64,000 nt of DNA from a virus (Duplodnaviria > Heunggongvirae > Uroviricota > Caudoviricetes): the IMG/VR virus record IMGVR_UViG_3300035502_000924, positions 13,160-77,159 of that record, one strand, 5' to 3'. A program made the position numbers and the translations under genes. This document shows, in pieces, positions 11,942 through 38,550 of this stretch (within the stretch, counting starts at the first letter, position 1; each line of letters begins with the position of its first letter). The notes under the pieces are model-generated. The model did no database searches, was not told where the DNA came from, and saw only the letters and a program-made list of their open reading frames with translations.

Positions 11942-14900
11942 ATGAGCGGTTCTCCAAGTGGAGTATTTAAATTAAAAAGTCAAGAAGGAAAATTAGGCTG
12001 TGGAATTCGTAGTGGAACTACTGATGCTAGTGTAGGCAATTTGCCTGTTTGGACTTGTGCAGGCTGGGACCTTTGCAATCAGTCATCATGTTGTACTACA
12101 ATGATATTAGCAATAATGTGTACAGATATATCTGGAAAATATATTACCCCAGATGAAATTTCACAAATATCTGCATATACTGCTGGTGAATATGCTGGTC
12201 GTACTATTCTTGATAAAGTTACAATGGCAAATATGGTAAATTCTGCATCAAGTTATTTTACTGCACAAGCAGCGGATGGTATAGATGAAAATAAAGTTAT
12301 TACAACTCTTAGCAATAATGGTAGAATTGGTTTTTGTATTCAAACATTACCTTCAACTAATGGAAAAAATTATTGGGATGGAAGTAAAGAAGGTACTGGA
12401 CACTGGTTGGCTATTTATAAAAGAGATACTAATGGAAATTATTATTGTTATGATGGTGGTGGTAATAGTACACTTGCAGGCGGTGATATCGCCACAAGAG
12501 CAACATTTCCAATATCTTTTTCAGCAATAAAACAAGCGATTGCAAATAGAAGTAATCAAGTATTATATATAAATCCTGCAAGTGGTAAAGGTGCTAACTT
12601 ATCAGGCGGTGGTTCTGCAAGTTCAGGAAGTGGTTCTTCTAGTTCAAGCGGTGGTTCAGGTATTACTGTAAGTTCAACAAGCTATTTTTCTGACATATCA
12701 GACTCAGACCAATCTAAGATTAAAGCACAAATAGATGCAATGATTGCAGCAGGTGCCGCACAAGGAATAAATATGGCAGTAGAAGGAGATTCTCTTGTTG
12801 TAGATTATTCTTCACATTTAAAGGATTATGTAAAATATGCAAATGTAAAAATGTTAAAAGGATTACAATATCATCCTAATTCGTTAGGTAGATTTAACTT
12901 TAAACAAGATTACATTGTAATTATAAGGAAAAAATTATATTTCGCCGCAACAATGGCAAGTAATGAAAATTTCCTACGATTATATCAAGTTAATAATTTT
13001 TCTGCAATAACAGTAAAAACTAGTGTTGCAGGTGAAGCCACTTGTAATATTTCATTAAAAGGTGGAGAAAAAGTAGTTTGTATAAATAGAAACGATGAAG
13101 AAGATAAAAATTGGCAAAGTTACGAAGAATTATTAAATGGTTTGACTAATATTGATGATGAAGCTACTACTGGTGATAGTAAATGGAGAATTGGTAGTAG
13201 TGATTGGGATAGTCCAACTTCATTAGGAGTGGATTATAAAAATTTAATGAAGGCGAGAGAAGCAAAATATGGTTGGAGAATTGCAGAAAAATGTGATTGG
13301 CAACCAATGGACGAAATAACTGTTTACTCTCAATCAAGAACAAAAAGAAATGCAAGTGGACAATTTACATTTGAAAAAATATTTTTTGGATATATAGATT
13401 CAATAAAGAAACAATTTGATAGTCAAGGTCCAATTATAACTATACAAGCAACAGACCAATTAAAATTATTAAAAAATAGTTATGTAAATAAATCTCCAAG
13501 TTTTCAACCTGGTAGATTTAATAATGGGTATTTGGATATAAGTTTTGCAACAAGTGAAACAGGATTAATAAAAATAACAGAACCATTCCAAGCAATATTT
13601 TCGGCAGGTGAAACTTCTGAGGAAGCAATAGCACGAATAAAAACACAAAGTACATTTAGTGAAATTTTTTCAGGATTATTTCCTGATTTGATTATTGCAC
13701 AAGGTTGTCTTGCTGCTGGTATTCCTGCTTCTTATTTAGTAACAAGAATAGAGCCTGTAAAAGTTATTCCTTATATTTTCAAATTAACTGATGGTGTAAA
13801 TTATCAATCATCAGAATTTAAATCAAGATTAGACTATTGTCAAGAGATAGCAGAATTATGTCTTATGGAATTTTTCCAAGATGAAGAAGGAAATATTGTG
13901 TTTAAAATACCAAGTTATGTTTTAGGAGCTAACAATTTAACAGCTAACAATATGGGGTATGAATTAAACGTAGAAGTTTTAAGAGAAAATAATTTTGCAC
14001 CATTTGATAAAAGTTATGCAATATCTTTAGAAAGAATACAAGAAGGATTAAAATATTGTAAGATGTTAGTATATACTTGTGAAAACAATGAAACATTAAG
14101 AACTATTTCATTAGCCTTATATGGTAGTGATTTGTATTCAAGTGAAATAAAATATCTAAATGTTGGTACTTGTCAAGGATATGGAATAAATGATACGTTA
14201 CCTAGTGGTACACAATTATTGTTAATAAAATACGATATATCAGACAAAGAGGCAAGAGATGAATATTTAGAAACAATATCAAATACAAGGGTTATGTCTT
14301 ATGCAACTGCATTATATAATCAACAATCAGGAATAAGTAGTATGGATAATTATTCAGGATTAACAATGTCTATGATGACTGATGCTTTAATTCCTGAAAC
14401 TCCACCAGAGGAAATAGTAAGTTTTACATTATCTGATACTGATAAAGAAGTTTATAATAGTATTGAAGTAAATGGTATAACATATATGGGTGTGTATGAA
14501 GGTGATGAAAAAACTGCAATAAAAAGAACAGTTCCAGATTATGAAAGTATAATGAGATTTGGCGTAAGAGTTGCACCAAGCGTAACGTCACCATTGATAT
14601 ATAGAGATGATAATTGTGAATTATTTGGTCACTGTTTATTAGCGAAATCAGCAGCAGGCAGATTCACTGCAACAGTATCAATGATAGAAAATCCTGATAT
14701 AAGGATAGGAAATCCTATTAGATTGTTTACTTATGATGAACATCCTAATATGGAAACTGGTATATGGAGTACAGAAACATATCCTGCACAAAGTGTTTAT
14801 TATATAAACTCTATAAGTAGAAGTATTAAAACTGATGGAGTTTCTACAATGACATTAGATTTAGTTGCTGGTAGAGTAATGGGAGAAGAAAGTATATATG

Positions 14901-15619
14901 ATAAACTATTTGTTGCGTATAGAGGATTTTATGAAGAACCAAATATAACAGACCCTGAAATTCTTGCTTATGCTAAAAGTAAATATCAATCAAGTTGGGA
15001 TGAAATACAATCAGGCTATGGTAGTGTTTCTATAAATAATGATAGTAGTGATAGCGGTAGTAGTGATAGTGATGATGATATTGGTGACGGTAGCTTCCCA
15101 GCTGATGGTCCAATTGCATTTAGTGGTTCAACTAACGAGGTAACAGGTAAAACAATCCAAGTTCCTAACGATGGATATATTGGTAGTCAAATGGTAATTG
15201 AAAAATATAGTAGCGTAAATGCTTTGGAACATAGTACACGTCAATGGAAAATATTAGAAGCGTCTGGTAGACATTTTGATAGCGATGGCTTCCTCAGAGT
15301 AGATGGGCGTTATGCTTTAGCGTTAAGTTGTAAATTTGGAAGACCTGGTGATAAAGTTAAAGTTGAGTTTCGTAATGGTCAAACTTTCTTAGGATTGTTT
15401 GTTGATTCGAAAAACAATCCTAGTGAAGTTGAATATAAAAACACTTGGGGACACCTGGATGGAAAACAAACATTGGAGTTTATTGTAAAAGATAGTGAAT
15501 TTATAATATCAGAAGGCGTATATAAAAAAGATGTTGCACAATGTCATCCTGAATGGGCAAATACAACAGTTAAGCAAATTACAAATCAAGGTCCATGGAG
15601 TTATACGCCTAAATCTTAA
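11942..15619 (+). CDS. tail or baseplate-associated lysin paralog 1: N-terminal papain-fold (C39-like) cysteine peptidase, then the shared LysM-containing core, then a C-terminal domain of unknown function
   Basis: Candidate Cys and His residues are in the N-terminal CAGWDLCNQSSCC...GTGHWLAIY segment. The ~700-aa core from LKDYVKYANV to GRVMGEESIYDK is shared with the ORFs at 23914 and 28085. A LysM-like segment is YTCENNETLRTISLALYGSDLYSSEIKYLNVG. Gly/Ser linkers are present. Confidence 0.7.
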   Translation: MSGSPSGVFKLKSQEGKLGCGIRSGTTDASVGNLPVWTCAGWDLCNQSSCCTTMILAIMCTDISGKYITPDEISQISAYTAGEYAGRTILDKVTMANMVNSASSYFTAQAADGIDENKVITTLSNNGRIGFCIQTLPSTNGKNYWDGSKEGTGHWLAIYKRDTNGNYYCYDGGGNSTLAGGDIATRATFPISFSAIKQAIANRSNQVLYINPASGKGANLSGGGSASSGSGSSSSSGGSGITVSSTSYFSDISDSDQSKIKAQIDAMIAAGAAQGINMAVEGDSLVVDYSSHLKDYVKYANVKMLKGLQYHPNSLGRFNFKQDYIVIIRKKLYFAATMASNENFLRLYQVNNFSAITVKTSVAGEATCNISLKGGEKVVCINRNDEEDKNWQSYEELLNGLTNIDDEATTGDSKWRIGSSDWDSPTSLGVDYKNLMKAREAKYGWRIAEKCDWQPMDEITVYSQSRTKRNASGQFTFEKIFFGYIDSIKKQFDSQGPIITIQATDQLKLLKNSYVNKSPSFQPGRFNNGYLDISFATSETGLIKITEPFQAIFSAGETSEEAIARIKTQSTFSEIFSGLFPDLIIAQGCLAAGIPASYLVTRIEPVKVIPYIFKLTDGVNYQSSEFKSRLDYCQEIAELCLMEFFQDEEGNIVFKIPSYVLGANNLTANNMGYELNVEVLRENNFAPFDKSYAISLERIQEGLKYCKMLVYTCENNETLRTISLALYGSDLYSSEIKYLNVGTCQGYGINDTLPSGTQLLLIKYDISDKEARDEYLETISNTRVMSYATALYNQQSGISSMDNYSGLTMSMMTDALIPETPPEEIVSFTLSDTDKEVYNSIEVNGITYMGVYEGDEKTAIKRTVPDYESIMRFGVRVAPSVTSPLIYRDDNCELFGHCLLAKSAAGRFTATVSMIENPDIRIGNPIRLFTYDEHPNMETGIWSTETYPAQSVYYINSISRSIKTDGVSTMTLDLVAGRVMGEESIYDKLFVAYRGFYEEPNITDPEILAYAKSKYQSSWDEIQSGYGSVSINNDSSDSGSSDSDDDIGDGSFPADGPIAFSGSTNEVTGKTIQVPNDGYIGSQMVIEKYSSVNALEHSTRQWKILEASGRHFDSDGFLRVDGRYALALSCKFGRPGDKVKVEFRNGQTFLGLFVDSKNNPSEVEYKNTWGHLDGKQTLEFIVKDSEFIISEGVYKKDVAQCHPEWANTTVKQITNQGPWSYTPKS
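12800..14905 (+). repeat. ~2.1-kb direct repeat copy 1, the shared core of the lysin paralogs
   Basis: Protein-level identity to the copies at 25115 and 29340 is clear by eye, for example QYHPNSLGRFN(F/Y)KQDY(I/V)VIIRKKLYFA and EFFQDEEGNIVFKIPSYV. Confidence 0.8.
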
Positions 15620-15632
15620 ATAAATAGTTTAA

Positions 15633-15672
15633 ATAAGGGGAAGATTAAATATTTTTCCCTTATTTTATTTTA
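15633..15672 (+). terminator. rho-independent terminator
   Basis: ataaggg-17 nt loop-cccttat followed by a T-rich tail. Confidence 0.5.
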
Positions 15673-15736: not shown

Positions 15737-18700
15737 ATGATTAAAAGAAATGGAGGTGTAATTGGTTTGGATGGAACAATACTTGCTAATTTGCAAGAAG
15801 CTATAACAAGTAATGATTTTCTTACTTCTCAAAAAAAATTAGTTGATGATACTTATAAAAATGATATATCATACTTATCTTCTGCACAAGAAGCTTCTGA
15901 TGCGTATATGGCAATGAAACAAAGAATACCTATGGTATTAGAGTATTATGTAACACCGTATGAAATTCATACAGTTGAAATGTACATAAATCCTAATAAG
16001 ATAAATATGAAACATCAAAAGATTACGTCTAAAACAGTTACTCGTGGTGGTATATTCTTTCATCATTATGGTGAAGATATTCCTGTTATGACTATTTCAG
16101 GTAATACTGGTTTATCAGGTATGAGTGGTATTGCAGAATTAGAGAAAATATTTAATTATTCAGGTACGCTTTTAAGATATCAAAATGTAGGTATAAATAA
16201 AATATATAATGGCGATAGCGAACCTTTACAAATATTATATTTAGATGATGCTGTTGAGTATTATGATAAAATAGTTGCTTCAAGTACTTCACTTGAAGAT
16301 ATACAAAATGCAAGTAATCAACTTACAGGTTTGTTAAGTTCAAGTTCAGAAAGAACAACTTTAACAACAGAAAAAGCTGCTGAGTTAGTAAATCTTGAAC
16401 TTTCTTCTTTATATTCAACTTTAAGTTTAAATCTTGCCTGTACAACAATACAAACTATTATTGCAAAGGTTAATGATGAAATAGCAACTATGTTAAGTAA
16501 AAATCAACAAGTAACATTTGCTACTGTATATAAATTAACTCAAACACAAGTTAAAAATTCTTCATTATCAAATGGTAAAATGCTGACAGCTTCAATACCA
16601 TTTCCATCAAGTTCAGAATGGTCAACTAATAAAGCAGAAGTTTTAGAAGAAATTTCAGAATATTTAGATGATATTAAGGATGCTTATGATGTGGATGACA
16701 CTGATGATATTACATATACTATGGTTAGTAATTATTTAAGTACATATCAAGAAACTGAAACTTATGATGTTTCTGAAATTGCATTTCAAATAGCAATAGA
16801 AATTTATAATTCTAACGTTGAATCATTAAATGGCACAGCTACTACGACAGAAACAGAAGATACAACAACATCTGCTACTGTTGAAAATGGTTTTGACAAG
16901 GATTTATATGTATGTGTAAGTGAAAGTGCTTATTTATATTCTGAACCTAAATTTACTGCTACTAAAATAGCACAATTATATCGTGGTGGTGAAGTAACAG
17001 TAAATCACGTAGATTCACCAGGAGCTTGGGGAATGGTTTCATATTACGAGGGTGGATATATAGCACTTGAAAATGGTGCAGAAGAAGATATCAACCAATA
17101 TACTATTACAGAAGAAGGAATACAAATGTATCGCTGGAATGGAATTGGTGATATGGATAAAATAACACAAGAGATAATGGAAAAAACTGCCGAAGGTAAA
17201 ACATATTCAGAAATAACAAATCCATCAACTGATGATAGTTCAAATAACAATAATAATAACAATACAACATCTTCAACATATTCACTATTAGGTTTTGGAA
17301 TGAATAAAAGTAGTAGTTCTACTTCTGTAAAAACAGTGAGTTCTTCTTCCATATTAGAGTTTAACAATATAAAATATGATACAGATTATTATGTATATCT
17401 TGCAATAAATCCTACTACAAATATTAATAACGTAAATTTGGATTTTATATCTTATAGTACGTCAAAAGAAGTATACGGTAAGGATTTAACTAAAAAAAGT
17501 GATGGAGTGTATACAGTTAAAGTAAGTTTTAAAGATAAGTCATCTTCAAAAAACTATGGTTCGATTTATGGTATTCAATTATATATAAATGGGGAACTTG
17601 TAAAATCAATAAATAGTTTTTATACAGGGAATAAAGAAGATAAAATATTTGCAAAAATTAATTTTGATACAGATACAGCTAGTTCTATATCTTATAATTC
17701 TTATGACCCAAGTATGGCAAAATCTATAAATAAAACAAGAAACATTTCTTTAAATAATGAAGAAAATAACGATGAAGATGTAACTATTAACTATGACAAT
17801 ATAATTGATGAAAACAATATTGAAGCTTTTTCATCAGAAGATATTGCAAATATGCCAGTAATGTCAACTTCAAATGTAACAGTAGAAGGTTTATCTACTA
17901 ATGCAGATTGTATTTATTATTCATTTAATAGTTATAAAATGTCAAATAATATAGAATATAGTTCTGCTGATGCTGACTGGTTTGCTGGATTTAAGGGTAT
18001 AACTAGCGAGTCTGAATATCGTATTCTTACCGATGGTTATGATGTAGAATTTTATATATATGTTAATGATATTGCAGAGAGTAATCTTACTGGTCTTTGT
18101 GTTGTTAAAGTCTATAAAGGATTAAGTGATACTTCTAATAAATCAAAATATGTATATGAAATAAAAGATATATTAACTACTAAATCAGATATCATAGATG
18201 ATAGTTATTTTGATTATACATATAGTCACAATGATGTATCATCAGTATATGGTAGTTGTGAAGAATTAATTATTTATCCTATAATAAATAATGTTATTAA
18301 ACCAGACCAAGGTGCGGTTAGTGTTCAATTTACAACAACAGCAAAATCTAGTTTAAGTATTAGCAAAATAATTAAGAACGCATATTTTGTCAATGAATCA
18401 GGCGATACTTCAAAAAGTATTACTGCAATAAGAAATAAATATGGTAATTCCGATACTACTTATACAATAACTGTTGAAACGTTAGTAAATGTAAGTAAGA
18501 TAGAGTTATCTACAAATTTTGATAATACTAGTGTAAATTCACAATCAATGAACGCTTCAAAAGCTGTTTGGTATAGAAGTAATTCCACCAGTTCCAATCC
18601 TTTAAGTTGCCCTTATTATAGATTTAGTGGTATTAAATATAAATTCAATGACCCAACAACAGGTAGTAGAACATTACATATTAAAGCAACATTAGAAAAT

Positions 18701-23913: not shown

Positions 23914-26900
23914 ATGGCTACTGTATACGGAAGTGGTGATGACCCTAATGCAACAGCTCCTAATTTAGGAACAACTTGTTCTAAGATATCTGGTACGTCA
24001 TACAAGGCTGTGTTTACAGCTTATTATCCTGATAACAGCAAACAAGAGGGTGGATATTACGATTGTAATAGTAAAAAATTAAATACTTCCAAACAAACTT
24101 GTGCTGCTCCATCTGATATTCCATATGGTTCATATGTTTGGATAGAAAGTTGTACAGGTGGTGATGGAGTAGATTATAGTAAAAGGTTATATATTGTTAC
24201 AGATAGAGGACAGGATATTGTTAAAGATAGTAAAGGTTATTATCATATAGATTTACTCTTTAAAGATAAAGCTTCTTCTGATAAGTTTGGTAAGATTCAG
24301 GGTAGTGCTATTATTCAAAAGAAAAGTGCTCCTTATACTACTGGTGTTTCTTCGGGTGGTACAAGTGGCAGCAAAAACCCTATAACTACATTCGTTTGGA
24401 TAGGACATTCAAGAGTTGTTTTTTTAAAAAACACTTCTGTCGTACAAAGTGACGATAAGTTGTACTGTGAAGGTAGTATCGGTTATGACAAAGTAGTAGG
24501 ATATATGAATCAAGCAGAAAACGAGGGTGCTGTCAAAAGTGGTGCTGCTACAATTATTTGGGCAGGTATAAACGACCTTAGAAATGTTGATAGATACGTT
24601 TCAGGTCTTAATGAATATGGAAAACAATGGAAAAATAAAGGAGCTGCCTGTTATGTTATGTCAGAAACTCCAATGGTTGACGAAATATATAAAAAACAAT
24701 ACCCAAGTTGGGCAACCTCTACTAATAATAAAGCAATACAAGATTTCAATTCAAAAATTAAATCTGGTGTTACAGAGATGACATACATAGATGTATGGAG
24801 TCAAATAGTAAATGATGTTAATGCTAACACTGTTGACACTATGGGTGTTCATTATACAACAAAAGAACTTAATAAAAAGATACACGATTATGTTAGAAAT
24901 TTTATCACTAATTCATCAAACAATACCAGTCTTTCATCAGGGGATGAATCTAATAGTGGTATTGAAGTTACAGGTTCATCTTATGACCCAACAATTTCTG
25001 CTGATGTAAAAAATTCTATATTTCAAGAATATTTAAGACAAAAAGAAGAATTAGCAAAACAAGGTATAGATATGTACGTAGAAGATAGCAACTTTGTTTT
25101 TGATTATTCTATTGCATTAGTTGATTATATTAAATATACTAACGTACATAAATTAAAAGGAATACAATGGCATCCCAACCAAATGAAAAAACAAGATTTT
25201 AAACAAGATTATATGGTTGTAATAAGAAAAAAATTGTATTTTGCTGCTTGTATGACAAGTGATGAATTGTTTTTACGTTTATATCAAATAAACAACTTTT
25301 CTGCAATACAAACAAATATTTCAACTTCATCAATAGGTAGTTGTAGTATTTCTCTTAAAGGCGGCGAAAGAGTAGTTTGTATAGAAAAGAAATCAGAAGA
25401 AAATCAAGGTTGGCAAAGTTACGAGGAGTTATTAAACGGTTTAACTAATATTGATGACGAAGGTGATAATTCTGGCGTAAAATGGCGTATGGGTGTTTTA
25501 GGTTGGGAAGACCCAAGTTCAGCAGGTGTGGATTATAAAAATCTAATGAAAGCAAGAGAAGCTAAATATGGATGGCGATATGCTGAGAAGTGCGATTGGC
25601 AACCAATGGATGAAATAATTGTATATTCTAAATCGAGAACTAAAAAAGATTCATCAGGGAAATATGCTTTTGAAAAAATATTTTTTGGTTACATACATTC
25701 AATAAAAAAAGATTTTAATAGCCAAGGACCAACTATAACTATACAAGCAAGTGACCAAACTGAATTATTATCATATAGTTTTCAAAATAATTTACCATCA
25801 TATTATCCTGGTAGATATAACCAAGGTTATTTAGATACAAGTTTTAATGTTGATGAATTTGGTTTGTTAAAAATACAAGACCCATTAGTTTATGGATATA
25901 TTTATAATGAACAGTCAGATGAAACCGCTAAAAAAACTTTAAATATGAGAATGTCACAAACAGATGTTTTTGCAGGAATATTCCCAGGAACTATTATTAA
26001 GTATTGTTGCTTATGTGCTGGTATTCCTTGGAAATATTTAAATACAAGAATAGAACCTGTTGAAATTATCCCTTATGTAGTTCAAATAAGAGGTAGTGTT
26101 AATTATGAAACTTCCTCAGAATTTAAGTCAAGATATGAATATTGTCAACAAGTAGCTGAAAGAAGTTTTATGGAATTTTTCCAAGATGAAGAAGGTAATA
26201 TTGTATTTAAAATTCCTAATTATGTAATAGGTTGTAATACATTAGACACTAATAATTGTGGACTCACAATAACTGATGAGTTTAGAGACTTAATTGGCAA
26301 AGAGTTAAAACCAGAAGCAACAAGACTTATGACAATGAGTAAATTACAAGAAATATGTCAAGATGTTACTCCAATGTTATATACAACAGTAGAGGGCGAT
26401 ACAGTTAAATCAATATCAACAGGATTATATGGTTCAACATTATATGCAACAGAAATAAGAAACTTAAATTTAGCACAATTACAAAAATATAGTATAAATG
26501 ATAAGCTAAAAGCAGGAATACAATTATTAGTATTTAAATATGATGTAACAGATGTTATCGCAAGGTCAGAATATGTTGATTTAATAAATAATTCAAGAGT
26601 AACTGCTTTTGCAAATCAATTATATACAAGTAGCTATTCTGATATAAAAGCATTTGATTTATTAAGAGTTGGCGATGTTACAATGTCAATGCTAACAGAT
26701 AGTTTTATACAAGTAATTCCACAAGAAGATTTAATAGGATTTACATTAACAGATTCTGATGAAAATGTATACACAACCGTAGATATAAATGGTATGACAT
26801 TTGGTGGTGAAAATGTTGCTACAAGCGTAAAAATAAAAAGAACAGTACCTAATATGGAAGCTATATTAAAGTTTGGCGTAAGACCAATGCAATCATTAGA

Positions 26901-27981
26901 AACAGGATTAGTATGTACAGAAGCAAGAGCAGAATTATATGGTGCATTATTATTGTCAAGGTCAATATCACAAAGATACACAGCAACGGTAAAAATGGTT
27001 GAAAATCCTGATATAAAAGTGGGAAATCCTGTTAGATTTTTGAGTTATGATGAGCATCCAAATCCTGAAACAGGTGAATATTCAGAAGATACTCCTCAAA
27101 GTGTTTATTATGTAGAAGCAGTAAGTAGAAATATTTCTTGTGAAGGTGTTTCCACAATGACTTTAACTTTATCATCAGGTAGAGTTATGGGTGAAGCAAG
27201 CATATATGATAAAATGTACCCAATGTATAAAACTTTTTATAAATTAGATATGTCAGATTTAGACCAAAAAACACAAGAAGCTATTGAAATGTTTCAGAAG
27301 ATGTATGATTCTGCTGTAAACAATTCAGATTCAGATGTTAGTATAAATGGTACAGATGGAGATAGTAGCGATAATAGTGATAGCACATCTGGAAGTTCTG
27401 GTAGTGGTGGTACTACTGGTATAAAATTTCCATTACCTTCTGGTAGTTGGCACGCAAGTTCAGGTATGTGGAGAAATTCAGGTACTGTATTTGACAATAA
27501 GGGAGAATTTCACGGCGGTATTGACCTTGGAGCTAACGAGGGTACAGCTATTTATGCCGCATATGCAGGTACTGTGTATGGTACAAATAGTTCTGGACCA
27601 AATACAGGTAGTCATGATTATGGATATTGGGTATGTATACAGAGTACGATTGGTGGTAAAAGTTTTTTACATTTATATGGACATATGTGTGAAGAACCAA
27701 TGGTAAAAGCAGGAGATAAAGTTACTGCTGGACAACAAATTGGAAAAGTTGGCAATACAGGCGATAGTAACGGCAATCATTTGCATTTTGAAATGACAGC
27801 AACGACTACATTGTTTGATAAAACAAAAAGAGTATGTGGATGGAACTTTTTACAAGGATATTCACCATTTGATTTAACTGCAATTGGTGCAAAAGGAGTT
27901 ATTGCATCACAGGGTGTTGATTATGATAGTTCTACTGGAAAAATAAAATACTTTAACGAAGAAAAAAAGAGCGGATATTAA
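23914..27981 (+). CDS. tail or baseplate-associated lysin paralog 2: 3D (MltA/YuiC-like) domain, then SGNH/GDSL hydrolase, then the shared LysM core, then a C-terminal M23 (LytM) metallopeptidase
   Basis: 3D domain: FTAYYPDN...CAAPSDIPYGSYVWIE...YIVTDRGQDI...HIDLLF. SGNH blocks: IGHSR, WAGINDL (GxND) and DTMGVHYT (DxxH). M23 motifs: HGGIDL and GNTGDSNGNHLHFE. The core is homologous to the ORFs at 11942 and 28085. Confidence 0.75.
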   Translation: MATVYGSGDDPNATAPNLGTTCSKISGTSYKAVFTAYYPDNSKQEGGYYDCNSKKLNTSKQTCAAPSDIPYGSYVWIESCTGGDGVDYSKRLYIVTDRGQDIVKDSKGYYHIDLLFKDKASSDKFGKIQGSAIIQKKSAPYTTGVSSGGTSGSKNPITTFVWIGHSRVVFLKNTSVVQSDDKLYCEGSIGYDKVVGYMNQAENEGAVKSGAATIIWAGINDLRNVDRYVSGLNEYGKQWKNKGAACYVMSETPMVDEIYKKQYPSWATSTNNKAIQDFNSKIKSGVTEMTYIDVWSQIVNDVNANTVDTMGVHYTTKELNKKIHDYVRNFITNSSNNTSLSSGDESNSGIEVTGSSYDPTISADVKNSIFQEYLRQKEELAKQGIDMYVEDSNFVFDYSIALVDYIKYTNVHKLKGIQWHPNQMKKQDFKQDYMVVIRKKLYFAACMTSDELFLRLYQINNFSAIQTNISTSSIGSCSISLKGGERVVCIEKKSEENQGWQSYEELLNGLTNIDDEGDNSGVKWRMGVLGWEDPSSAGVDYKNLMKAREAKYGWRYAEKCDWQPMDEIIVYSKSRTKKDSSGKYAFEKIFFGYIHSIKKDFNSQGPTITIQASDQTELLSYSFQNNLPSYYPGRYNQGYLDTSFNVDEFGLLKIQDPLVYGYIYNEQSDETAKKTLNMRMSQTDVFAGIFPGTIIKYCCLCAGIPWKYLNTRIEPVEIIPYVVQIRGSVNYETSSEFKSRYEYCQQVAERSFMEFFQDEEGNIVFKIPNYVIGCNTLDTNNCGLTITDEFRDLIGKELKPEATRLMTMSKLQEICQDVTPMLYTTVEGDTVKSISTGLYGSTLYATEIRNLNLAQLQKYSINDKLKAGIQLLVFKYDVTDVIARSEYVDLINNSRVTAFANQLYTSSYSDIKAFDLLRVGDVTMSMLTDSFIQVIPQEDLIGFTLTDSDENVYTTVDINGMTFGGENVATSVKIKRTVPNMEAILKFGVRPMQSLETGLVCTEARAELYGALLLSRSISQRYTATVKMVENPDIKVGNPVRFLSYDEHPNPETGEYSEDTPQSVYYVEAVSRNISCEGVSTMTLTLSSGRVMGEASIYDKMYPMYKTFYKLDMSDLDQKTQEAIEMFQKMYDSAVNNSDSDVSINGTDGDSSDNSDSTSGSSGSGGTTGIKFPLPSGSWHASSGMWRNSGTVFDNKGEFHGGIDLGANEGTAIYAAYAGTVYGTNSSGPNTGSHDYGYWVCIQSTIGGKSFLHLYGHMCEEPMVKAGDKVTAGQQIGKVGNTGDSNGNHLHFEMTATTTLFDKTKRVCGWNFLQGYSPFDLTAIGAKGVIASQGVDYDSSTGKIKYFNEEKKSGY
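25115..27215 (+). repeat. ~2.1-kb direct repeat copy 2, more diverged
   Basis: Same conserved blocks (IQWHPNQMKKQDFKQDYMVVIRKKLYFAA and FMEFFQDEEGNIVFKIPNYV). Confidence 0.75.
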
Positions 27982-27999: not shown

Positions 28000-28046
28000 A
28001 ATTGGTTATGAGTTTTAATTTCATAACCAATTTTTTATTTTTTTAT
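28000..28046 (+). terminator. rho-independent terminator
   Basis: aattggttatga...cataaccaatt followed by a T-run. Confidence 0.7.
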
Positions 28047-28084: not shown

Positions 28085-31000
28085 ATGGCACAATCAATTC
28101 CTGAATGTTATACAAGTTGGGCAGAAGAAATAGCAAAAAATTCTAGTCATGGTTATAGTCAGCTTGATGAAAAAAGATGGGGTCCTGATTATGACTGTTC
28201 AAGTTTGGTAATTTCTGCGATTGAACAAGCAGGTATAGAATTAAGAAGTAAAGGTGCAGATGATACAAGTAATTCATTACAGCCCTTATTAGATAGTGGA
28301 TTTGAAGATATTTTAGCAAACGGCACTGTTAAGAGCAGTTCAACCGAAAATATGAAACGAGGAGATATCTTATTAAGAAGCAAGGCTGCTGCTTCTGCTA
28401 AAGGTGGTCATATGGCTATCTATTGTGGTAATAATAAGATAGTTGAAGCCAGTGGCGATGAAAATGGTGGTGATGGTAAGAGTTCTGATATAGACTCAGG
28501 AGACCAGGTACAGCAAGGAACAAAATATCGAAGCAAAGAAGAAATTGGTATTAATCCATATCAAAATGGCAATTGGACTAATATTTTAAGATATACAGGA
28601 ACTGAAACTGCAAAAAGTAGTGGAACTGTTTCAGCACCTTCGATAGATAAAACAACTTATAGATTGGGAAGTGGAAGTGAACACGGAGCACAAACGCCAC
28701 AATATGTAGTTATGCACTGGGCAATTAATACTACTTGTCAAGGCATTTACAACCAGTTTAAATCGAATCAAACCACAAGTGATAGTAGTAAAAAAGGTGT
28801 TGCTGCTCATTACGCTATTGGTAATGATGGTTCAATATTTCAAATGGTAGATGACAATATACAATGCTGGCATTCAAAAAGTCATCATAATAAATATTCC
28901 ATTGGTATAGAATCTTGCACTAAAAGCATTACAACGGGAGAATATACTGAAGCAGGATATAACGCTAATGTTCATTTAGCCGCATATCTTTGTAAAACTT
29001 ATAATATTAATCCTTCTACAAATTTATTAAGACATTATGATTGCTCAGGAAAAGCTTGTCCACGTTGGTTTGCACCTAATCCAGACTATACTGATAGTGG
29101 TGTTCTTTATCCTAAAAATTCGAATTGCGATACAGATTGGGCAAAATTTAAATCAGATGTTGCAAATAAAATGAACGGATTAGGTAGCAGTAGCGGTTTA
29201 AGTGTTGAAGCAAGTTATTTTTCAGGAGTTCCTACTGATACATCTGATATGTCAGCTTCTGCTATGAAACAAATAGAACAATTAAAAGCAATGGGATTAG
29301 ATGCTTATGCAAGTGGCTCTGATATCATGATTAATTATTCTATCCTTTTAAAGGATTACATAAAATATGCAAATGTTAGATTGTTAAAAGGATTGCAATA
29401 TCATCCAAATTCATTGGGTAGATTTAATTATAAACAAGATTATGTTGTAATTATTAGAAAGAAATTATATTTTGCTGGTACAGTAACAAGTGAAGAAAAT
29501 TATTTAAGATTATATCAATTAAATAATTTTTCTGCTATTACAGTAAGTACATCTGTTGCTGCTGAAGGTACTGCAAGTGTTTCAATAAAGGGTGCAGAAA
29601 GAGTTGTATGTATAGATAGAGCTGATGAAACCAATAAAAATTGGCAAAGTTGGGATGAAATGCTGAATGGTTTAACTAACATTGACAACGAAGCAGAAAC
29701 AAATGGTACTAGATGGAGAATTGGTAATAGTGAATGGAATGACCCAAATTCTTCTGGCATAGATTATAAAAATTTAATGAAAGCAAGAGAAGCAAAATAT
29801 GGTTGGAAATTTGCCGAAAAATGCGATTTTGAACCAATGGATGAAATAATAATATTTTCACAATCAAGGTCGGAAAGAAATTCAAGTGGTCAATTTACAT
29901 TTAAAAAAATATTCTTTGGATATATAAATTCAGTCCAAAAAGATTATTCAACAAAAGGATTGACGATGACTATACAAGCTTCTGACCAATTAAAATTATT
30001 AAGAAATAGCTATGTAAATAAATCTGCGAGTTACCAACCAGGTATTTATAATAATGGTTATTTGGATATAAGTTTTGCTACTGATAAATTTGGTATGATA
30101 AAATTAAAAGAACCTTATTCAGCATTAATGGCAGCACAAGGTGAAGAAACATCACAAGATTCAATAAATGAAGTATCACAAAGAACTGTCTGGTCAGAAA
30201 TCTTTTGCGGATTGTTCCCTGATATCATTATAGCAAATGCTTGTATGGATGCTGGCATTCCAGCAAGATATTTAGTAACAAGAATAGAACCTGTAAAGGT
30301 TATTCCTTATATTTTTAAAGATTTTACAGCTACACCTGATTATTTCTCTACTGAATTTAAATCAAGATTACAATATTGTCAAGAAATAGCAGAAATTTGT
30401 TTTATGGAATTTTTTCAAGATGAAGATGGTAATATTGTGTTTAAAATACCAAGTTATGTATTAGGTTGTAATAACTTAACAAGTAACAATATGGGATATG
30501 AATTGGATTTAAGTTTTAGAGAGAATATAGGTGCAAAATTAGATAAATCTGATGTTGCAACATTAGCTAAAATACAGGCATTGTGTGAATATTGTCAAGC
30601 AATAATTTATACCACTGTTGAAGGAGATACTTTAGCAAATATTTCTGTTGATTTATATGGAACTTCTATTTATGCAAGTGAAATAAAATATTTAAATGTT
30701 GGTACATTACAAAAATATTCGGCAAATGATTTAATAGATGTAGGTACAAAAATTTTAGTATTTAGTTATGATGTAAAAGATAGTAAAGCAAGAGAAGAAT
30801 ATACTGATTTATTAACAAATTCATTTGTTTCTACATTGGCAACTACTTTATATAATGAACAAACAGGTATAATAGACGTTGTAAATATGATTGGTGTTAC
30901 AAATTCAATGCTTACAGACCCTCTTATACCTCAAGTATTGCCTAATGAAATAATTAGTTTTGTTTTATCCGATTGTGATTCAGGTATTTATAATTCAATA

Positions 31001-32050
31001 GATATGAACTCAGAAACATTTATGAATGTTTATGATAATTCAGGTGCAGATTTAAAAATGAAAAGAACTGTTCCTGAGATAGATTCAATAATACATTTTG
31101 GAGTTAGAGTAGCACCAAGTACGACAACACCACTTATAAACGCAGGTTACAACTTAGAGTTGTTAGGACACTTAATATTAGCTAAATCTGCTGCTAGTAG
31201 ATTTACTGCAACATTGTCAATGGTTGAAAATCCTGATATAAGAGTAGGTAATCCTATTAGGTTATTTACTTATGACGAACATCCTCAAATGGAAACAGGA
31301 TTATGGAGCACTGATACATATCCTGAGCAAAGTGTTTATTATATAAATTCTATAAGTAGAAGTATTAAGGCTGATGGTGTTTCCACTATGTCGATAGATT
31401 TAGTTGGCGGTAGAATGATGGGAGAGGAAAGTATATATGATAAAATGTCAGTATTGTATTTAGGTTTTTATGTAATGCCTAATATGAATGATGCAACAAG
31501 AGCTTTAGCTGAACAATATTATAGTGAAAACTGGGGTAAAATTACTTCATCTTCTGAGGTTTCACTTAGTACAAATAGTGATGGTTCAGGTGGTACTGAT
31601 GATGGTATAACGGCTGATAATTCAAATGCAGTAGGATATTGTTTCAATACTCTTAAAAATAGACTTGGAATTAATACGGCAGCGATTTGTGGGGTATTAG
31701 GCAATTTATGGGTTGAGAGTAAATTTAACCCTGCCGCTAGTAATAAAGGTTCTCATTTAGGTCTTGCACAATGGGATAGTGTAACTAGATACCCACGAAT
31801 GAAAAAATATTGTTCTGAAAATGGGTATGATTATAAAACGGTTAAAGGTCAAATAGAATATGTTTGTTATGAAATGAAAAATTCATATGTAAATACATAT
31901 AATTATTTAAAAGGGCTATCTAATACAGAAAGTAGCGTAACAGATGCAGCCGATTATGTAAGACTTCATTATGAGGTATGTGATGAACAAGGAGCACCGC
32001 AAAGACGGTCGCAAGCACTAAATTACTGGAAAACATATAAAGAAAGTTAA
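28085..32050 (+). CDS. tail or baseplate-associated lysin paralog 3: NlpC/P60 peptidase, then Amidase_2 (PGRP-type N-acetylmuramoyl-L-alanine amidase), then the shared LysM core, then a C-terminal SLT/GH23-like lytic transglycosylase
   Basis: NlpC/P60: GPDYDCSSLV...GGHMAIY. Amidase_2: HYAIGNDGSIFQMV...CWHSK...SIGIES. SLT-like: GNLWVESKFNPAASNKGSHLGLAQW (the ES...GLxQ catalytic block). The core is ~70% identical to paralog 1. Confidence 0.75.
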   Translation: MAQSIPECYTSWAEEIAKNSSHGYSQLDEKRWGPDYDCSSLVISAIEQAGIELRSKGADDTSNSLQPLLDSGFEDILANGTVKSSSTENMKRGDILLRSKAAASAKGGHMAIYCGNNKIVEASGDENGGDGKSSDIDSGDQVQQGTKYRSKEEIGINPYQNGNWTNILRYTGTETAKSSGTVSAPSIDKTTYRLGSGSEHGAQTPQYVVMHWAINTTCQGIYNQFKSNQTTSDSSKKGVAAHYAIGNDGSIFQMVDDNIQCWHSKSHHNKYSIGIESCTKSITTGEYTEAGYNANVHLAAYLCKTYNINPSTNLLRHYDCSGKACPRWFAPNPDYTDSGVLYPKNSNCDTDWAKFKSDVANKMNGLGSSSGLSVEASYFSGVPTDTSDMSASAMKQIEQLKAMGLDAYASGSDIMINYSILLKDYIKYANVRLLKGLQYHPNSLGRFNYKQDYVVIIRKKLYFAGTVTSEENYLRLYQLNNFSAITVSTSVAAEGTASVSIKGAERVVCIDRADETNKNWQSWDEMLNGLTNIDNEAETNGTRWRIGNSEWNDPNSSGIDYKNLMKAREAKYGWKFAEKCDFEPMDEIIIFSQSRSERNSSGQFTFKKIFFGYINSVQKDYSTKGLTMTIQASDQLKLLRNSYVNKSASYQPGIYNNGYLDISFATDKFGMIKLKEPYSALMAAQGEETSQDSINEVSQRTVWSEIFCGLFPDIIIANACMDAGIPARYLVTRIEPVKVIPYIFKDFTATPDYFSTEFKSRLQYCQEIAEICFMEFFQDEDGNIVFKIPSYVLGCNNLTSNNMGYELDLSFRENIGAKLDKSDVATLAKIQALCEYCQAIIYTTVEGDTLANISVDLYGTSIYASEIKYLNVGTLQKYSANDLIDVGTKILVFSYDVKDSKAREEYTDLLTNSFVSTLATTLYNEQTGIIDVVNMIGVTNSMLTDPLIPQVLPNEIISFVLSDCDSGIYNSIDMNSETFMNVYDNSGADLKMKRTVPEIDSIIHFGVRVAPSTTTPLINAGYNLELLGHLILAKSAASRFTATLSMVENPDIRVGNPIRLFTYDEHPQMETGLWSTDTYPEQSVYYINSISRSIKADGVSTMSIDLVGGRMMGEESIYDKMSVLYLGFYVMPNMNDATRALAEQYYSENWGKITSSSEVSLSTNSDGSGGTDDGITADNSNAVGYCFNTLKNRLGINTAAICGVLGNLWVESKFNPAASNKGSHLGLAQWDSVTRYPRMKKYCSENGYDYKTVKGQIEYVCYEMKNSYVNTYNYLKGLSNTESSVTDAADYVRLHYEVCDEQGAPQRRSQALNYWKTYKES
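29340..31445 (+). repeat. ~2.1-kb direct repeat copy 3
   Basis: Same conserved blocks; this copy is closest to copy 1. Confidence 0.8.
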
Positions 32051-38536: not shown

Positions 38537-38550
38537 GAGGTGATGTTGTT

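What the first reader, a model, noticed from the sequence alone, without database searches (positions are those of the whole stretch)
11942..32050. Three paralogous hub or tip-like proteins share one LysM-containing core but carry at least seven different cell-wall hydrolase domains
The ORFs at 11942, 23914 and 28085 share a ~700-aa core that includes a LysM domain. In PBSX- and diffocin-like contractile tails, LysM (XkdP-like) and hub proteins follow the tape measure. Each paralog fuses a different set of enzymes to that core. Paralog 1 has a papain/C39-like Cys peptidase. Paralog 2 has 3D (MltA-like), SGNH esterase and M23 domains. Paralog 3 has NlpC/P60, Amidase_2 and SLT/GH23 domains. Together this is a near-complete peptidoglycan demolition kit inside the tail module. 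It could reflect three co-assembling subunits of one baseplate hub (a heterotrimer) or alternative tips. Each cassette has its own terminator. Paralog 1 and paralog 3 are ~70% identical, so the duplications look recent and suggest modular exchange.
Basis: partly seen in the sequence, partly recalled or inferred. Interest (0 to 1): 0.85.

Follow-up and report, generated by a model that had tools for sequence, protein, structure and literature searches.

The report
Three paralogous enzyme-armed tail hub proteins
A giant, uncultivated phage carries three diverged copies of the protein that normally forms the three-part plug at the tip of a contractile tail, and each copy is tethered to different cell-wall-cutting enzymes, so the tail tip may be built from three unlike subunits carrying eight different tools.

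Summary
ORFs 11942-15619 (P1), 23914-27981 (P2) and 28085-32050 (P3) share a ~780-800-aa core. Protein identity is 51-62% by BLASTP, and P1-P3 are 73% identical at the DNA level. An AlphaFold model of the core matches only gp27/Mu gp44/VgrG/Tal-type baseplate hubs, including the diffocin hub-hydrolase CD1368. A diverged LysM module sits inside the core, at the position where relatives have a significant Pfam LysM.

I find eight accessory domains, not seven:
- P2: MltA/3D-like transglycosylase, SGNH esterase (its Asp is replaced by Met) and M23.
- P3: NlpC/P60, Amidase_2 and phi29-gp13-type lysozyme.

Phage G and more than 20 related large-phage contigs have one hub gene at this position. Only this phage and a sibling phage have three. 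The duplications predate the split of those two phages, so they are not recent. Terminator-like hairpins follow nearly every gene here, but none follows P3.

Enzyme-carrying hubs are already known (diffocin, phage 812). The triplication is the new element. Whether the three copies form one mixed trimer, alternative tips or extra layers could not be tested.

The parts
11942..15619 (+). P1: hub-hydrolase paralog 1 (1225 aa). It lies between the tape measure gene and the gp184-family gene.
   Evidence: ORF list; BLASTP paralogy; phrog_14367 and phage G gp185 homology.
11942..12556 (+). P1 N-terminal papain/C39-like cysteine peptidase domain (aa 1-205). Putative triad: Cys51, His154, Asp171.
   Evidence: The domain is homologous to the N-termini of the single-copy hubs P0004/5/6/9/10. 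Cys, His and Asp are conserved in alignment A2. Pfam Peptidase_C39 (E 0.0026) and the C39-like DUF3335 (E 0.0052) each hit 2 of 6 family members, but not the window copy itself. Support is weak.
12659..15061 (+). P1 hub core (aa 240-1040), with a gp27/Mu gp44-type fold and large insertions.
   Evidence: AF2 model: pLDDT 78, pTM 0.77. Foldseek PDB hits: MuSo2 43-kDa protein 3cdd (TM 0.64 normalised to the target), Mu gp44 (1wru, 9ki1_G), T4 gp27 (1k28_D), VgrG, diffocin 8v3w_H, phi812 9euf_E and T5 pb3, with E 1e-13 to 1e-5.
14072..14224 (+). Diverged LysM module inside the P1 core (aa 711-761).
   Evidence: Maps to the Pfam-significant LysM of 7 homologues. The AF2 model has beta-alpha-alpha-beta here. 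The window copy has no Pfam hit of its own.
15149..15595 (+). P1 C-terminal double-psi beta-barrel domain (aa ~1070-1218) from a large unannotated family. Lys1157, His1171 and Glu1179 are invariant and Asp1155 is near-invariant.
15737..23788 (+). gp184-family protein (2683 aa). By position it corresponds to the tube-tail/initiator slot of diffocin. It separates P1 from P2.
   Evidence: Its N- and C-terminal parts are homologous to the 909- and 1046-aa proteins of relatives and to phage G gp184. No Pfam, PHROG or PDB match. The function is inferred from gene order only.
23914..27981 (+). P2: hub-hydrolase paralog 2 (1355 aa).
   Evidence: Identical to database protein P0007, which is seen on several contigs.
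23935..24315 (+). P2 MltA/3D-like lytic transglycosylase domain (aa 8-134). Asp97 and Asp113 are conserved.
   Evidence: phmmer hit to diffocin hub-hydrolase CD1368 residues 321-457, E 5.6e-12, with the alignment shown. That lobe is described as an MltA-like lytic transglycosylase in PMC10996793. Pfam 3D itself was not hit.
24391..24903 (+). P2 SGNH/GDSL-type esterase domain (aa ~160-330). It has Ser166 (GHS), Gly218/Asn220 (GIND) and His313. The usual triad Asp is Met310.
   Evidence: Profile A5 hits the solved SGNH esterases 6njc (E 1e-4), 7pzg, 3p94 and 4iyj. Motifs read from the alignment.
24961..27297 (+). P2 hub core (aa 350-1128), including a diverged LysM at aa 823-873 (nt 26380-26532).
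   Evidence: 51% identity to the P1 core over ~800 aa. LysM mapping.
27508..27807 (+). P2 C-terminal M23 metallopeptidase (aa 1199-1298). Motifs: His1200-x3-Asp1204 and His1289-x-His1291.
   Evidence: Pfam PF01551, E 1.2e-22, 80 bits against a cut-off of 28.7. PDB M23 hits. Motifs read from the sequence.
28085..32050 (+). P3: hub-hydrolase paralog 3 (1321 aa). It is followed after 17 nt by the gp186-like gene, the arrangement seen for single-copy hubs.
   Evidence: Identical to P0002.
28178..28456 (+). P3 NlpC/P60 endopeptidase (aa 32-124). Catalytic residues: Cys38, His109, Glu121.
   Evidence: Pfam PF00877, E 2e-9, 37.8 bits against a cut-off of 23. Residues read from the sequence.
28691..29065 (+). 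P3 Amidase_2, an N-acetylmuramoyl-L-alanine amidase (aa 203-327). Zinc ligands: His211, His317, Cys325.
   Evidence: Pfam PF01510, E 3.3e-24. Residues read from the sequence.
29213..31549 (+). P3 hub core (aa 377-1155), including a diverged LysM at aa 842-892 (nt 30608-30760).
   Evidence: 60-62% identity to the P1 core. LysM mapping.
31637..32035 (+). P3 C-terminal phage tail lysozyme (aa 1185-1317, phi29 gp13 N-domain type). Putative catalytic Glu1211.
   Evidence: Pfam PF18013, E 5.7e-25. PDB hits to phi29 gp13 (3csr, 3csq).
4403..11863 (+). Tape measure protein (2486 aa), the upstream boundary of the module.
   Evidence: Pfam PhageMin_Tail. Synteny with phage G gp183.
32068..34059 (+). gp186-family protein (663 aa) in the slot that holds the central spike in diffocin-type modules. 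Its function is not established.
   Evidence: Homologous to the 452- and 374-aa proteins of relatives and to phage G gp186. No Pfam, PHROG or PDB match.
34187..42231 (+). Baseplate genes downstream: a gp25-like sheath initiator (34187-34675), a Baseplate_J/gp6-like protein (34697-38536) and a gp189-family protein with a faint Mu gp48 match (38551-42231).
   Evidence: PHROG and Pfam hits. Synteny.

Best explanation
Shown (about 0.9 confidence): P1, P2 and P3 are three diverged paralogs of the gp27/Mu gp44-type central baseplate hub of a very large contractile-tailed phage related to Bacillus phage G. The window is ~28% G+C, the tape measure is 2486 aa, and two of the paralogs (P2, P3) match proteins recorded on contigs of up to 502,690 bp. 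Each paralog is a 'hub-hydrolase'. It consists of a ~800-aa hub core with an embedded, diverged LysM module. Two or three peptidoglycan-active domains are attached to its N- and C-termini by Gly/Ser- or Asp/Ser-rich linkers.

Together the paralogs carry eight different accessory domains:
- Glycan-strand cutters: an MltA/3D-like transglycosylase, a gp13-type lysozyme, and possibly the new double-psi beta-barrel domain.
- An amidase.
- Three peptidases: NlpC/P60, M23 and C39-like.
- An SGNH esterase. It sits directly next to the transglycosylase and may remove O-acetyl groups that block glycan cleavage.

[quoted passage not shown] Its tethered enzymes are held on the baseplate until contraction. 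They then digest a thick Gram-positive-type wall ahead of the tube.

Inferred (about 0.4): a hub is a single trimer and related phages have one hub gene. All three copies have been kept under purifying selection in two diverged phages. The three proteins therefore most likely co-assemble into one mixed trimer (P1:P2:P3), giving one copy of each enzyme per virion and a tip without three-fold symmetry.
For: - Paralogy.
- Hub fold: AF2 model of the core (pLDDT 78). Hubs, VgrG spikes and Tal proteins dominate the 50 best Foldseek PDB matches (the rest are chains of baseplate or tail-tip complexes); TM is 0.62-0.68 relative to Mu gp44-class hubs and E goes down to 9e-13.
- Position: the order tape measure, gp184-like, hub, gp186-like, gp25-like, J-like is the same as in phage G and two related contigs. 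It parallels the diffocin order of tape measure, tube tail, hub-hydrolase, spike, sheath initiator, triplex (PMC10996793).
- Enzyme domains and catalytic residues.
- LysM.
- All 39 family-invariant core residues are present in all three paralogs, because alignment A1 includes them.
- Orthologs of each paralog occur in a sibling phage in the same order. Bootstrap support is 100% for each ortholog pair. Core dN/dS is 0.12-0.27.
- There is a single hub copy within +-10 kb in phage G, L002, L004 and 19 other IMG/VR loci.
- Precedents for enzyme-bearing homotrimeric hubs: diffocin and phage 812 (PMC13433997).
- Precedents for paralogs co-assembling: phiKZ heterohexameric fibres (PMC13250141) and VgrG heterotrimers in Vibrio cholerae (my own knowledge; mentioned in PMC4453574).
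Against: - No direct evidence of stoichiometry or location. No multimer prediction, proteomics or map was available.
- P1 is not adjacent to P2/P3. It lies upstream of the 2683-aa gp184-family gene, which could mean a different assembly step or position.
- Monophyly of all three paralogs has only 50% bootstrap support, so P2 could have been acquired separately.
- In Serratia, paralogous VgrG1 and VgrG2 do not form heterotrimers and instead define alternative assemblies (PMC4924876).
- The core has no Pfam hub family hit, so hub identity rests on fold, synteny and homology to phage G gp185, which is itself uncharacterised.
- The C39-like and double-psi beta-barrel assignments are weak. The SGNH domain lacks the triad Asp.
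Confidence: 0.42

Rival explanations
1. Alternative tips. Each paralog forms its own homotrimeric hub, or the trimers mix at random. A burst then contains virions with different enzyme sets, which broadens the range of wall chemistries and hosts that can be penetrated.
For: - Single-copy relatives must form homotrimers, and the paralogs keep every family-invariant core residue, so self-assembly is plausible.
- Serratia VgrG1 and VgrG2 define distinct assemblies and do not mix (PMC4924876).
- The accessory domains are swapped freely among related phages, as expected for host-range determinants.
Against: - All three genes are on one strand in one late module, with no switch, invertible element or recombinase seen next to them.
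- A homotrimer of P1 would carry only two of the eight accessory domains (a weakly supported peptidase and the uncharacterised barrel) and no recognised glycan-cleaving enzyme or amidase.
- No evidence on particle populations.
Confidence: 0.25
2. One true hub plus two hub-derived accessory proteins. P3 (or P2) is the hub, being in the ancestral position and tightly coupled to the gp186-like gene. The other paralogs have been redeployed elsewhere in the oversized baseplate, for example as an extra trimeric ring stacked on the tube axis, or as wall-degrading modules docked on the wedges.
For: - P3 is followed after 17 nt by the gp186-like gene, as are the single-copy hubs (15 nt in L002).
- P1 is displaced to the other side of the gp184-family gene.
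- Neighbouring baseplate proteins are greatly enlarged compared with relatives: 2683 aa versus 484-1046 aa, and 1279 aa versus 619-963 aa. The baseplate may therefore have room for extra layers.
- Tube-like rings do stack in T4 and phiKZ (initiator, spacer, hub).
Against: - No known case of stacked gp27-type trimers.
- The whole core is conserved evenly in all three paralogs, including the segments most conserved across the family. That argues for retention of the same contacts rather than a new role.
Confidence: 0.2
3. The paralogs are not structural. They are soluble endolysins or decaying duplicates, or the tandem arrangement is a metagenome assembly artefact.
For: They carry endolysin-type domains. 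P1 itself was not found as an exact entry in the protein collection.
Against: - Intact long ORFs, with purifying selection on the cores.
- The same gene order occurs on independent contigs from other samples (L005, L030, L031).
- Hub fold and tail-module position.
- The paralogs are only 50-64% identical, far too diverged to be collapsed strain variants.
Confidence: 0.03

Closest known systems
Diffocin hub-hydrolase CD1368 (Clostridioides difficile R-type bacteriocin; PDB 8v3w chain H)
   Same: A gp27-like hub joined by a flexible linker to peptidoglycan hydrolases. It lies after the tape measure and before the spike, sheath initiator and triplex genes. The P2 N-terminal domain is directly homologous to its MltA-like lobe (E 5.6e-12). 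The core model matches its hub domain (Foldseek E 1.2e-9).
   Different: CD1368 is a single gene forming a homotrimer. Its hub is minimal (314 aa), has no LysM, and carries two enzymes at the C-terminus only. Here there are three paralogs, the core is ~800 aa with an internal LysM, and enzymes are attached at both ends (eight kinds in total).
Hub protein of Staphylococcus phage 812/K (channel domains I-IV, clamp, and a CHAP 'cleaver' domain; PDB 9euf chain E)
   Same: A large hub of a Gram-positive myophage with a tethered wall-degrading domain shown to be active by zymogram (PMC13433997). Structural match to the core (Foldseek E 4e-8).
   Different: One gene, a homotrimer, one enzyme domain whose active site is masked by a separate 'weld' protein. 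No sequence similarity was detected by phmmer.
Bacillus phage G gp185 (phrog_14367) and single-copy homologues on large uncultivated phage contigs
   Same: True sequence homologues of the core (33% identity over 700 aa, E 1e-103), with the same gene neighbourhood and a LysM at the same internal position.
   Different: Single copy per module. gp185 (840 aa) has little beyond the core. In phage G, lytic domains (glucosaminidase and M23) are reported on the tape measure instead (PMC8570332). No function has been assigned to gp185 in the literature I could search.
'Hyperplastic' gp27 homologue gp147 of Bacillus thuringiensis phage 0305phi8-36 (Hardies et al. 2007, PMC2147016)
   Same: A conserved hub domain embedded in a much larger protein whose N- and C-terminal domains are exchanged between relatives.
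   Different: Single gene, and enzyme content is not described. I did not test homology to the window proteins.
Specialised ('evolved') VgrG paralogs of type VI secretion systems
   Same: Several paralogous gp27-gp5-type subunits in one genome, each carrying a different effector domain, some of them peptidoglycan hydrolases. VgrG structures match the core model. Both heterotrimers (Vibrio cholerae; my own knowledge, mentioned in PMC4453574) and strictly separate assemblies (Serratia, PMC4924876) are documented.
   Different: This is a bacterial secretion apparatus, not a virion. VgrG includes the spike beta-helix, effectors are attached at the C-terminus only, and there is no LysM.
Tail-associated lysins (Tal) of siphophages and phi29 gp13
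   Same: A hub-fold N-terminal part with C-terminal lytic domains. The P3 C-terminal domain is the gp13-type lysozyme, and M23 is shared with gp13 and the NF5 Tal.
   Different: These belong to non-contractile or short tails, are single genes, and have a different architecture.

Membership tests
gp27 / Mu gp44 / P2 gpD-type central baseplate hub | Hub fold: two tube-like beta-barrel domains plus two further domains. | tested here: met
   AF2 model of the P1 core. All of the top 50 Foldseek PDB hits are hub, VgrG or Tal proteins, or chains of baseplate and tail-tip complexes. TM is 0.62-0.68 normalised to the Mu gp44-class targets, with probability 1.00.
gp27 / Mu gp44 / P2 gpD-type central baseplate hub | Gene position between the tape measure and the gp25-like and gp6/J-like baseplate genes. 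| tested here: met
   P2 and P3 are in the canonical slot. P1 lies one gene upstream.
gp27 / Mu gp44 / P2 gpD-type central baseplate hub | Match to a curated sequence family of hubs (for example Phage_GPD, YQBQ-like or the T4 gp27 families). | tested here: not met
   No Pfam hub family hit at E <= 10. Only phrog_14367 ('unknown function') and a marginal phrog_1887 'tail protein' were hit. Homology is visible at the fold level only.
gp27 / Mu gp44 / P2 gpD-type central baseplate hub | Forms a trimer that caps the tail tube and binds the tape measure and spike. | not testable with these tools
   No multimer prediction or experimental data available.
Hub-hydrolase (diffocin CD1368 / phage 812 hub type) | Hub domain covalently linked by a flexible linker to peptidoglycan-hydrolase domain(s) with intact catalytic residues. 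| tested here: met
   - Pfam domains.
- CD1368 lobe homology.
- Gly/Ser- and Asp/Ser-rich linkers, and these catalytic motifs read from the sequence: M23 H1200xxxD1204 and H1289xH1291; NlpC/P60 C38/H109/E121; Amidase_2 H211/H317/C325; lysozyme E1211.
Hub-hydrolase (diffocin CD1368 / phage 812 hub type) | Wall-degrading activity and presence in the particle. | not testable with these tools
   Requires zymograms and virion proteomics.
LysM (PF01476) | Significant match to the LysM profile. | tested here: not met
   No hit in P1, P2 or P3 at E <= 10.
LysM (PF01476) | Homologous position to a genuine LysM, and a beta-alpha-alpha-beta fold. | tested here: met
   Seven homologues with LysM at E 1e-7 to 5e-14 align column-for-column with P1 711-761, P2 823-873 and P3 842-892. 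The AF2 secondary structure is E482-487, H494-502, H505-514, E533-538 in core numbering.
Peptidase M23 (PF01551) | Profile match above the gathering score, with HxxxD and HxH zinc motifs. | tested here: met
   80.3 bits against a cut-off of 28.7. H1200GGID1204 and H1289LH1291.
NlpC/P60 (PF00877) | Profile match above the gathering score, with a Cys-His(-polar) triad. | tested here: met
   37.8 bits against a cut-off of 23. DC38SS...GGH109MAIY...IVE121AS. The correspondence to E. coli MepS C68/H119/H131 comes from my recollection of that sequence.
3D / MltA-like lytic transglycosylase (PF06725) | Match to the 3D profile. | tested here: not met
   No Pfam 3D hit at E <= 10.
3D / MltA-like lytic transglycosylase (PF06725) | Homology to a characterised MltA-like domain, with conserved Asp residues. 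| tested here: met
   P2 8-134 against CD1368 321-457, E 5.6e-12. The TD97RG and HID113 motifs are aligned. That lobe was compared with MltA in PMC10996793.
SGNH/GDSL hydrolase | Four conserved blocks with a Ser, Gly, Asn and His/Asp catalytic set. | tested here: inconclusive
   Profile A5 hits solved SGNH esterases (E 1e-4 to 6.5e-3). Ser166, Gly218, Asn220 and His313 are present. The Asp of DxxH is Met310 in the window copy, although it is Asp in the sibling ortholog and in two other relatives. No Pfam hit.
Peptidase C39 / papain-like | Profile match and a Cys...His...Asp order. | tested here: inconclusive
   The window copy has no Pfam hit. Two of six family members hit Peptidase_C39 (E 0.0026) and DUF3335 (E 0.0052), both below the gathering score. 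Cys51, His154 and Asp171 are conserved in 5 of 6 members. A profile search of the PDB found nothing. No structure was predicted.
SLT / GH23 (PF01464) | Match to the SLT profile. | tested here: not met
   Only PF18013 (Phage_lysozyme2, E 5.7e-25) is hit. This is a lysozyme-like family of the phi29 gp13 type, so the enzyme class is right but the named family is not.
Double-psi beta-barrel (RlpA / 3D / expansin / barwin-like) | DPBB fold. | tested here: inconclusive

The most novel reading that the evidence does not exclude
The three paralogs are obligate partners of a single heterotrimeric hub. This phage would then have a central tail tip without three-fold symmetry, presenting exactly one copy each of eight different wall-active domains. 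These include an esterase-transglycosylase pair and a previously unannotated double-psi beta-barrel enzyme family. It would be the first heteromeric gp27-type hub described in a virus, evolved by gene triplication followed by complete replacement of the terminal domains.
Probability: 0.35. Interest if true: 0.78.

Novelty: new variant of a known kind. Interest (0 to 1): 0.6.

Why it matters
Central hubs of contractile tails, tailocins and type VI systems are treated as homotrimers that set the 6-to-3-fold symmetry change at the tube tip. A phage that keeps three diverged hub genes raises a directly testable question: can a virion hub be heteromeric, as has been reported for some VgrG spikes?

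It also shows how far the hub-hydrolase principle recently seen in diffocin and phage 812 can be taken. Eight different wall-active modules sit on one scaffold, and the accessory domains are exchanged among related giant phages.

In practical terms:
- The locus is a compact catalogue of tail-associated lysins against a low-G+C, probably Gram-positive host.
- The P1 C-terminal domain defines a widespread family with no Pfam model. It has 315 cluster representatives and often sits on giant tape-measure-like proteins. It is a candidate new peptidoglycan-active domain.
- The adjacent SGNH esterase and lytic transglycosylase suggest a built-in answer to O-acetylated peptidoglycan. This functional link is my inference.

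Tried and rejected
- Word-indexed protein searches with the P1 N-terminal domain and the P2 SGNH region returned nothing.
- Sequence searches of the PDB found nothing useful for the core, the 663-aa protein, the 2683-aa protein, the C39-like profile or the P1 C-terminal profile.
- The AFDB50 fold library was not available.
- A weak BLAST match between P2 68-130 and residues 548-612 of the 2683-aa protein lacks the catalytic Asp. I rejected it as evidence for another transglycosylase.
- I looked for recent gene conversion between paralogs. Sliding-window identity is even and tracks family conservation, with no near-identical tracts.
- I looked for terminators specific to the paralog 'cassettes'. 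Hairpin plus T-run sites follow most genes in the window.
- Promoter-like hexamers are not enriched: 117 found against 128 expected.
- A scan of GTDB representative genomes found no relatives of the core, so no host could be inferred.
- Literature searches found no report of paralogous or heteromeric hubs in phages, within the library searched.
- Hetero- versus homotrimer formation could not be tested. There was no multimer prediction and no access to model coordinates.

Full report
**1. What is in the sequence**

The window has about 28% G+C with a constant strand bias over 1-46 kb. It carries a run of very long same-strand ORFs:
- a 2486-aa tape measure (4403-11863; Pfam PhageMin_Tail);
- P1 (11942-15619, 1225 aa);
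- a 2683-aa ORF (15737-23788);
- P2 (23914-27981, 1355 aa);
- P3 (28085-32050, 1321 aa);
- a 663-aa ORF;
- a 162-aa gp25-like baseplate protein;
- a 1279-aa Baseplate_J protein;
- a 1226-aa protein with a faint Mu gp48 match.

BLASTP shows that P1, P2 and P3 share one ~800-aa core:
- P1 228-1042 aligns with P3 364-1172 at 60% identity.
- P1 aligns with P2 at 51%.
- P2 aligns with P3 at 48-49%.

At the DNA level the identities are 73, 68 and 66%. The termini are unrelated between paralogs. P2 and P3 are identical to database proteins seen on several contigs of up to 502,690 bp. This is therefore a giant uncultivated phage, not an assembly artefact.

**2. What the core is**

The core belongs to phrog_14367 ('unknown function'). 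Its only relative among deposited phage genomes is gp185 of the 497-kb Bacillus phage G (33% identity over 700 aa, E 1e-103). In phage G the gene order is chaperones, tape measure gp183, gp184, gp185, gp186, gp187, then the gp6/J-like gp188 (PMC8570332).

Sequence searches of the PDB and Pfam gave nothing for the core. An AlphaFold2 model built on 35 homologues (pLDDT 78, pTM 0.77) was compared with the PDB by Foldseek. Hubs, VgrG spikes and Tal proteins dominate the 50 best matches, and the remaining entries are chains of baseplate or tail-tip complexes:
- contractile-injection-system hubs (7b5h, 7aef, 9gtr; E down to 9e-13);
- the MuSo2 43-kDa protein and Mu gp44 (TM 0.62-0.68 normalised to the target);
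- T4 gp27;
- VgrG spikes;
- diffocin CD1368;
- the phage 812 hub;
- T5 pb3 and other Tal proteins.

The core is about twice the size of a minimal hub, so it carries insertions.

One insertion is a LysM. Pfam does not detect it in the window copies. In seven homologues it is significant (E 1e-7 to 5e-14) and maps exactly to P1 711-761, P2 823-873 and P3 842-892. The model has a beta-alpha-alpha-beta unit there.

**3. The accessory domains**

Four domains pass Pfam's curated thresholds:
- M23 (P2 1199-1298);
- NlpC/P60 (P3 32-124);
- Amidase_2 (P3 203-327);
- Phage_lysozyme2 (P3 1185-1317), which is the phi29 gp13 type and not SLT proper.

Their catalytic residues can be read directly from the sequence:
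- M23: H1200xxxD1204 and H1289xH1291.
- NlpC/P60: C38, H109, E121.
- Amidase_2: H211, H317, C325.
- Lysozyme: E1211.

The second refutation test (missing M23 or NlpC/P60 catalytic residues) is therefore also passed.

P2 8-134 is homologous to residues 321-457 of the diffocin hub-hydrolase (E 5.6e-12). The TDRG and HID motifs align. The authors describe that lobe as an MltA-like lytic transglycosylase (PMC10996793).

For P2 ~160-330, I built a four-sequence profile from the window copy, the sibling ortholog and two fecal phage contigs. It hits solved SGNH esterases (6njc at E 1e-4, plus 7pzg, 3p94 and 4iyj). The window copy keeps Ser166, Gly218/Asn220 and His313, but has Met310 where its relatives have the triad Asp.

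P1 1-205 has homologues at the N-termini of single-copy hubs. Cys51, His154 and Asp171 are conserved. Two family members give sub-threshold Pfam hits to Peptidase_C39 and the C39-like DUF3335. The assignment is plausible but weak.

- An exhaustive HMMER search found 315 cluster representatives.
- Many of these are in 3000-7000-aa tape-measure-sized proteins, or lie next to CHAP, Amidase_2, LysM or a YQBQ-like hub.
- No Pfam model covers the domain.
- In BFVD it matches four uncharacterised phage proteins strongly, and then '3D domain' and 'RlpA-like' proteins weakly.
- Lys1157, His1171 and Glu1179 are invariant in 30 sequences, and Asp1155 is near-invariant.

The total is eight different accessory domains. 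They are joined to the core by Gly/Ser- or Asp/Ser-rich linkers.

**4. Comparative context**

Related contigs L002 (301 kb) and L004 (182 kb), and phage G, all show the same order: tape measure, gp184-like, one hub, gp186-like, gp25-like, J-like.

Among 22 IMG/VR loci with +-10 kb flanks, only the window's own lineage has more than one hub-core copy. A sibling phage, sampled on contigs L005 and L031 from other metagenomes, has the same arrangement: tape measure, P1-like, 2688-aa protein, P2-like, P3-like.

A neighbour-joining tree of 704 core columns gives the following:
- three ortholog pairs, each with 100% bootstrap support and 78-84% identity;
- P1 and P3 as sisters (100%);
- unresolved monophyly of all three paralogs (50%).

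The duplications therefore predate the split of the two phages and are not recent. P2 may have a separate origin.

Core dN/dS between orthologs is 0.12-0.27, while the accessory domains evolve faster (0.4-0.64). The P1 C-terminal domain is only 33% identical between the siblings. The same accessory domain families occur on single-copy hubs in other combinations and positions. For example, M23 is N-proximal in P0005/6/9/10 but C-terminal in P2. This supports modular exchange, a pattern already noted for the 'hyperplastic' hub of phage 0305phi8-36 (PMC2147016). There is no sign of recent gene conversion.

**5. Terminators**

Hairpin plus T-run sites lie after the tape measure (11869-11896), P1 (15631-15665) and P2 (28000-28032). 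By eye, further sites follow the 2683-aa gene, the 663-aa gene and many other genes.

P3 is followed after 17 nt by the next ORF. This matches the coupling seen between single-copy hubs and their downstream gene. The hairpins are a genome-wide feature and do not mark 'cassettes'.

**6. How it most likely works**

*Shown:* these are three paralogous hub-fold proteins in the hub slot of a contractile-tail module, each tethered to wall-active domains with largely intact catalytic sites.

*Inferred from diffocin and phage 812:* the hub caps the tube, its enzymes are parked on the baseplate, and they are released on contraction to digest a thick wall ahead of the tube. The enzyme set covers glycan strands, the MurNAc-L-Ala bond, stem peptides or cross-bridges, and probably O-acetyl groups. 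The esterase lies directly beside the transglycosylase, and that class of enzyme needs a free C6 hydroxyl on MurNAc (established biochemistry; the link made here is my inference).

*Stoichiometry* is the open point. I favour co-assembly into one mixed trimer (about 0.4) for three reasons:
- The hub is a single trimer.
- Relatives manage with one gene.
- All three copies keep every family-invariant residue and have been retained together.

Precedents point both ways. VgrG heterotrimers are reported in Vibrio (my own knowledge; mentioned in PMC4453574) and phiKZ fibres are heterohexamers of paralogs. On the other hand, Serratia VgrG1 and VgrG2 stay separate (PMC4924876). The rivals are alternative or randomly mixed tips (0.25) and one true hub plus redeployed copies in an enlarged baseplate (0.2).

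**7. Novelty and verdict**

Hubs that carry enzymes are established (T4 gp27-gp5, diffocin, phage 812, siphophage Tal), as are hubs with exchangeable termini. Three things are new:
- the conserved triplication of the hub gene within one tail module;
- the breadth of the enzyme set (eight kinds);
- as a by-product, a large unannotated beta-barrel domain family.

I found no report of paralogous or heteromeric virion hubs in the searchable literature. I rate this a new variant of a known kind, with interest 0.6. Interest would rise to about 0.78 if an obligate heterotrimer were demonstrated.

Noticed in passing
window 15149-15595 (P1 aa ~1070-1218): This domain belongs to a large family with no Pfam model. 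It has 315 cluster representatives and often sits near the C-terminus of 3000-7000-aa tape-measure-sized proteins, or next to CHAP, Amidase_2, LysM, a YQBQ-like hub or WXG100. The predicted fold is a double-psi beta-barrel only distantly related to 3D/RlpA/expansin. Lys, His and Glu are invariant. It is a candidate new peptidoglycan-active or peptidoglycan-binding domain.
   Followed up: partly
window 1362-1390 and 45288-45316 (+ strand): Two nearly identical, perfect-consensus sigma-70-type promoters (TTGACAAAAyATAAAAAAnGTAGTATAAT; 0 expected by chance). They stand in front of a DUF932 gene (1442-2341) and a 113-aa ORF (45349-45690), and so bracket the tail module. Each follows a hairpin terminator. 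They may be early or host-polymerase promoters for moron-like genes.
   Followed up: partly
window 15737-23788: The gp184-family protein is 2683 aa here and 2688 aa in the sibling phage. It is 484 aa in phage G and 909 and 1046 aa in two relatives. Only the N-terminal ~500 aa and residues ~1855-2343 are shared, so about 1350 aa of unknown sequence has been inserted. There is no Pfam, PHROG or PDB match. The J-like protein is likewise enlarged (1279 aa versus 619-963 aa).
   Followed up: partly
window 24841-24843 (P2 Met310): The SGNH domain of the window copy has Met where the sibling ortholog and two other relatives have the catalytic-triad Asp (DxxH). Ser, Gly, Asn and His are retained. The domain may act as a Ser-His dyad enzyme or be a binding module.
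   Followed up: partly
window intergenic regions, e.g. 11869-11896, 15631-15665, 23815-23860, 28000-28032, 34085-34115, 42270-42315: A G+C-poor hairpin followed by a T-run sits after almost every gene of the module (13 terminator-like sites in 20 kb against 4.6 expected). This suggests gene-by-gene transcription attenuation or RNA-end protection across the genome.
   Followed up: partly
window 4403-11863: The tape measure here has no recognisable lytic domain. The phage G tape measure is reported to carry glucosaminidase and M23 domains (PMC8570332). In this lineage the lytic load appears to have moved from the tape measure to the hub paralogs.
   Followed up: no
window 256-2341: A transglutaminase-like DUF553 protein, a GNAT acetyltransferase and a DUF932 protein lie immediately upstream of the tail genes. 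These are non-structural genes embedded at the edge of the structural module.
   Followed up: no
protein P0006 (single-copy hub on a 54-kb contig), N-terminal ~230 aa: In this relative the C39-like domain has lost both the Cys and the His of the putative triad. It appears to be a degenerate, probably non-catalytic copy retained on the hub.
   Followed up: no
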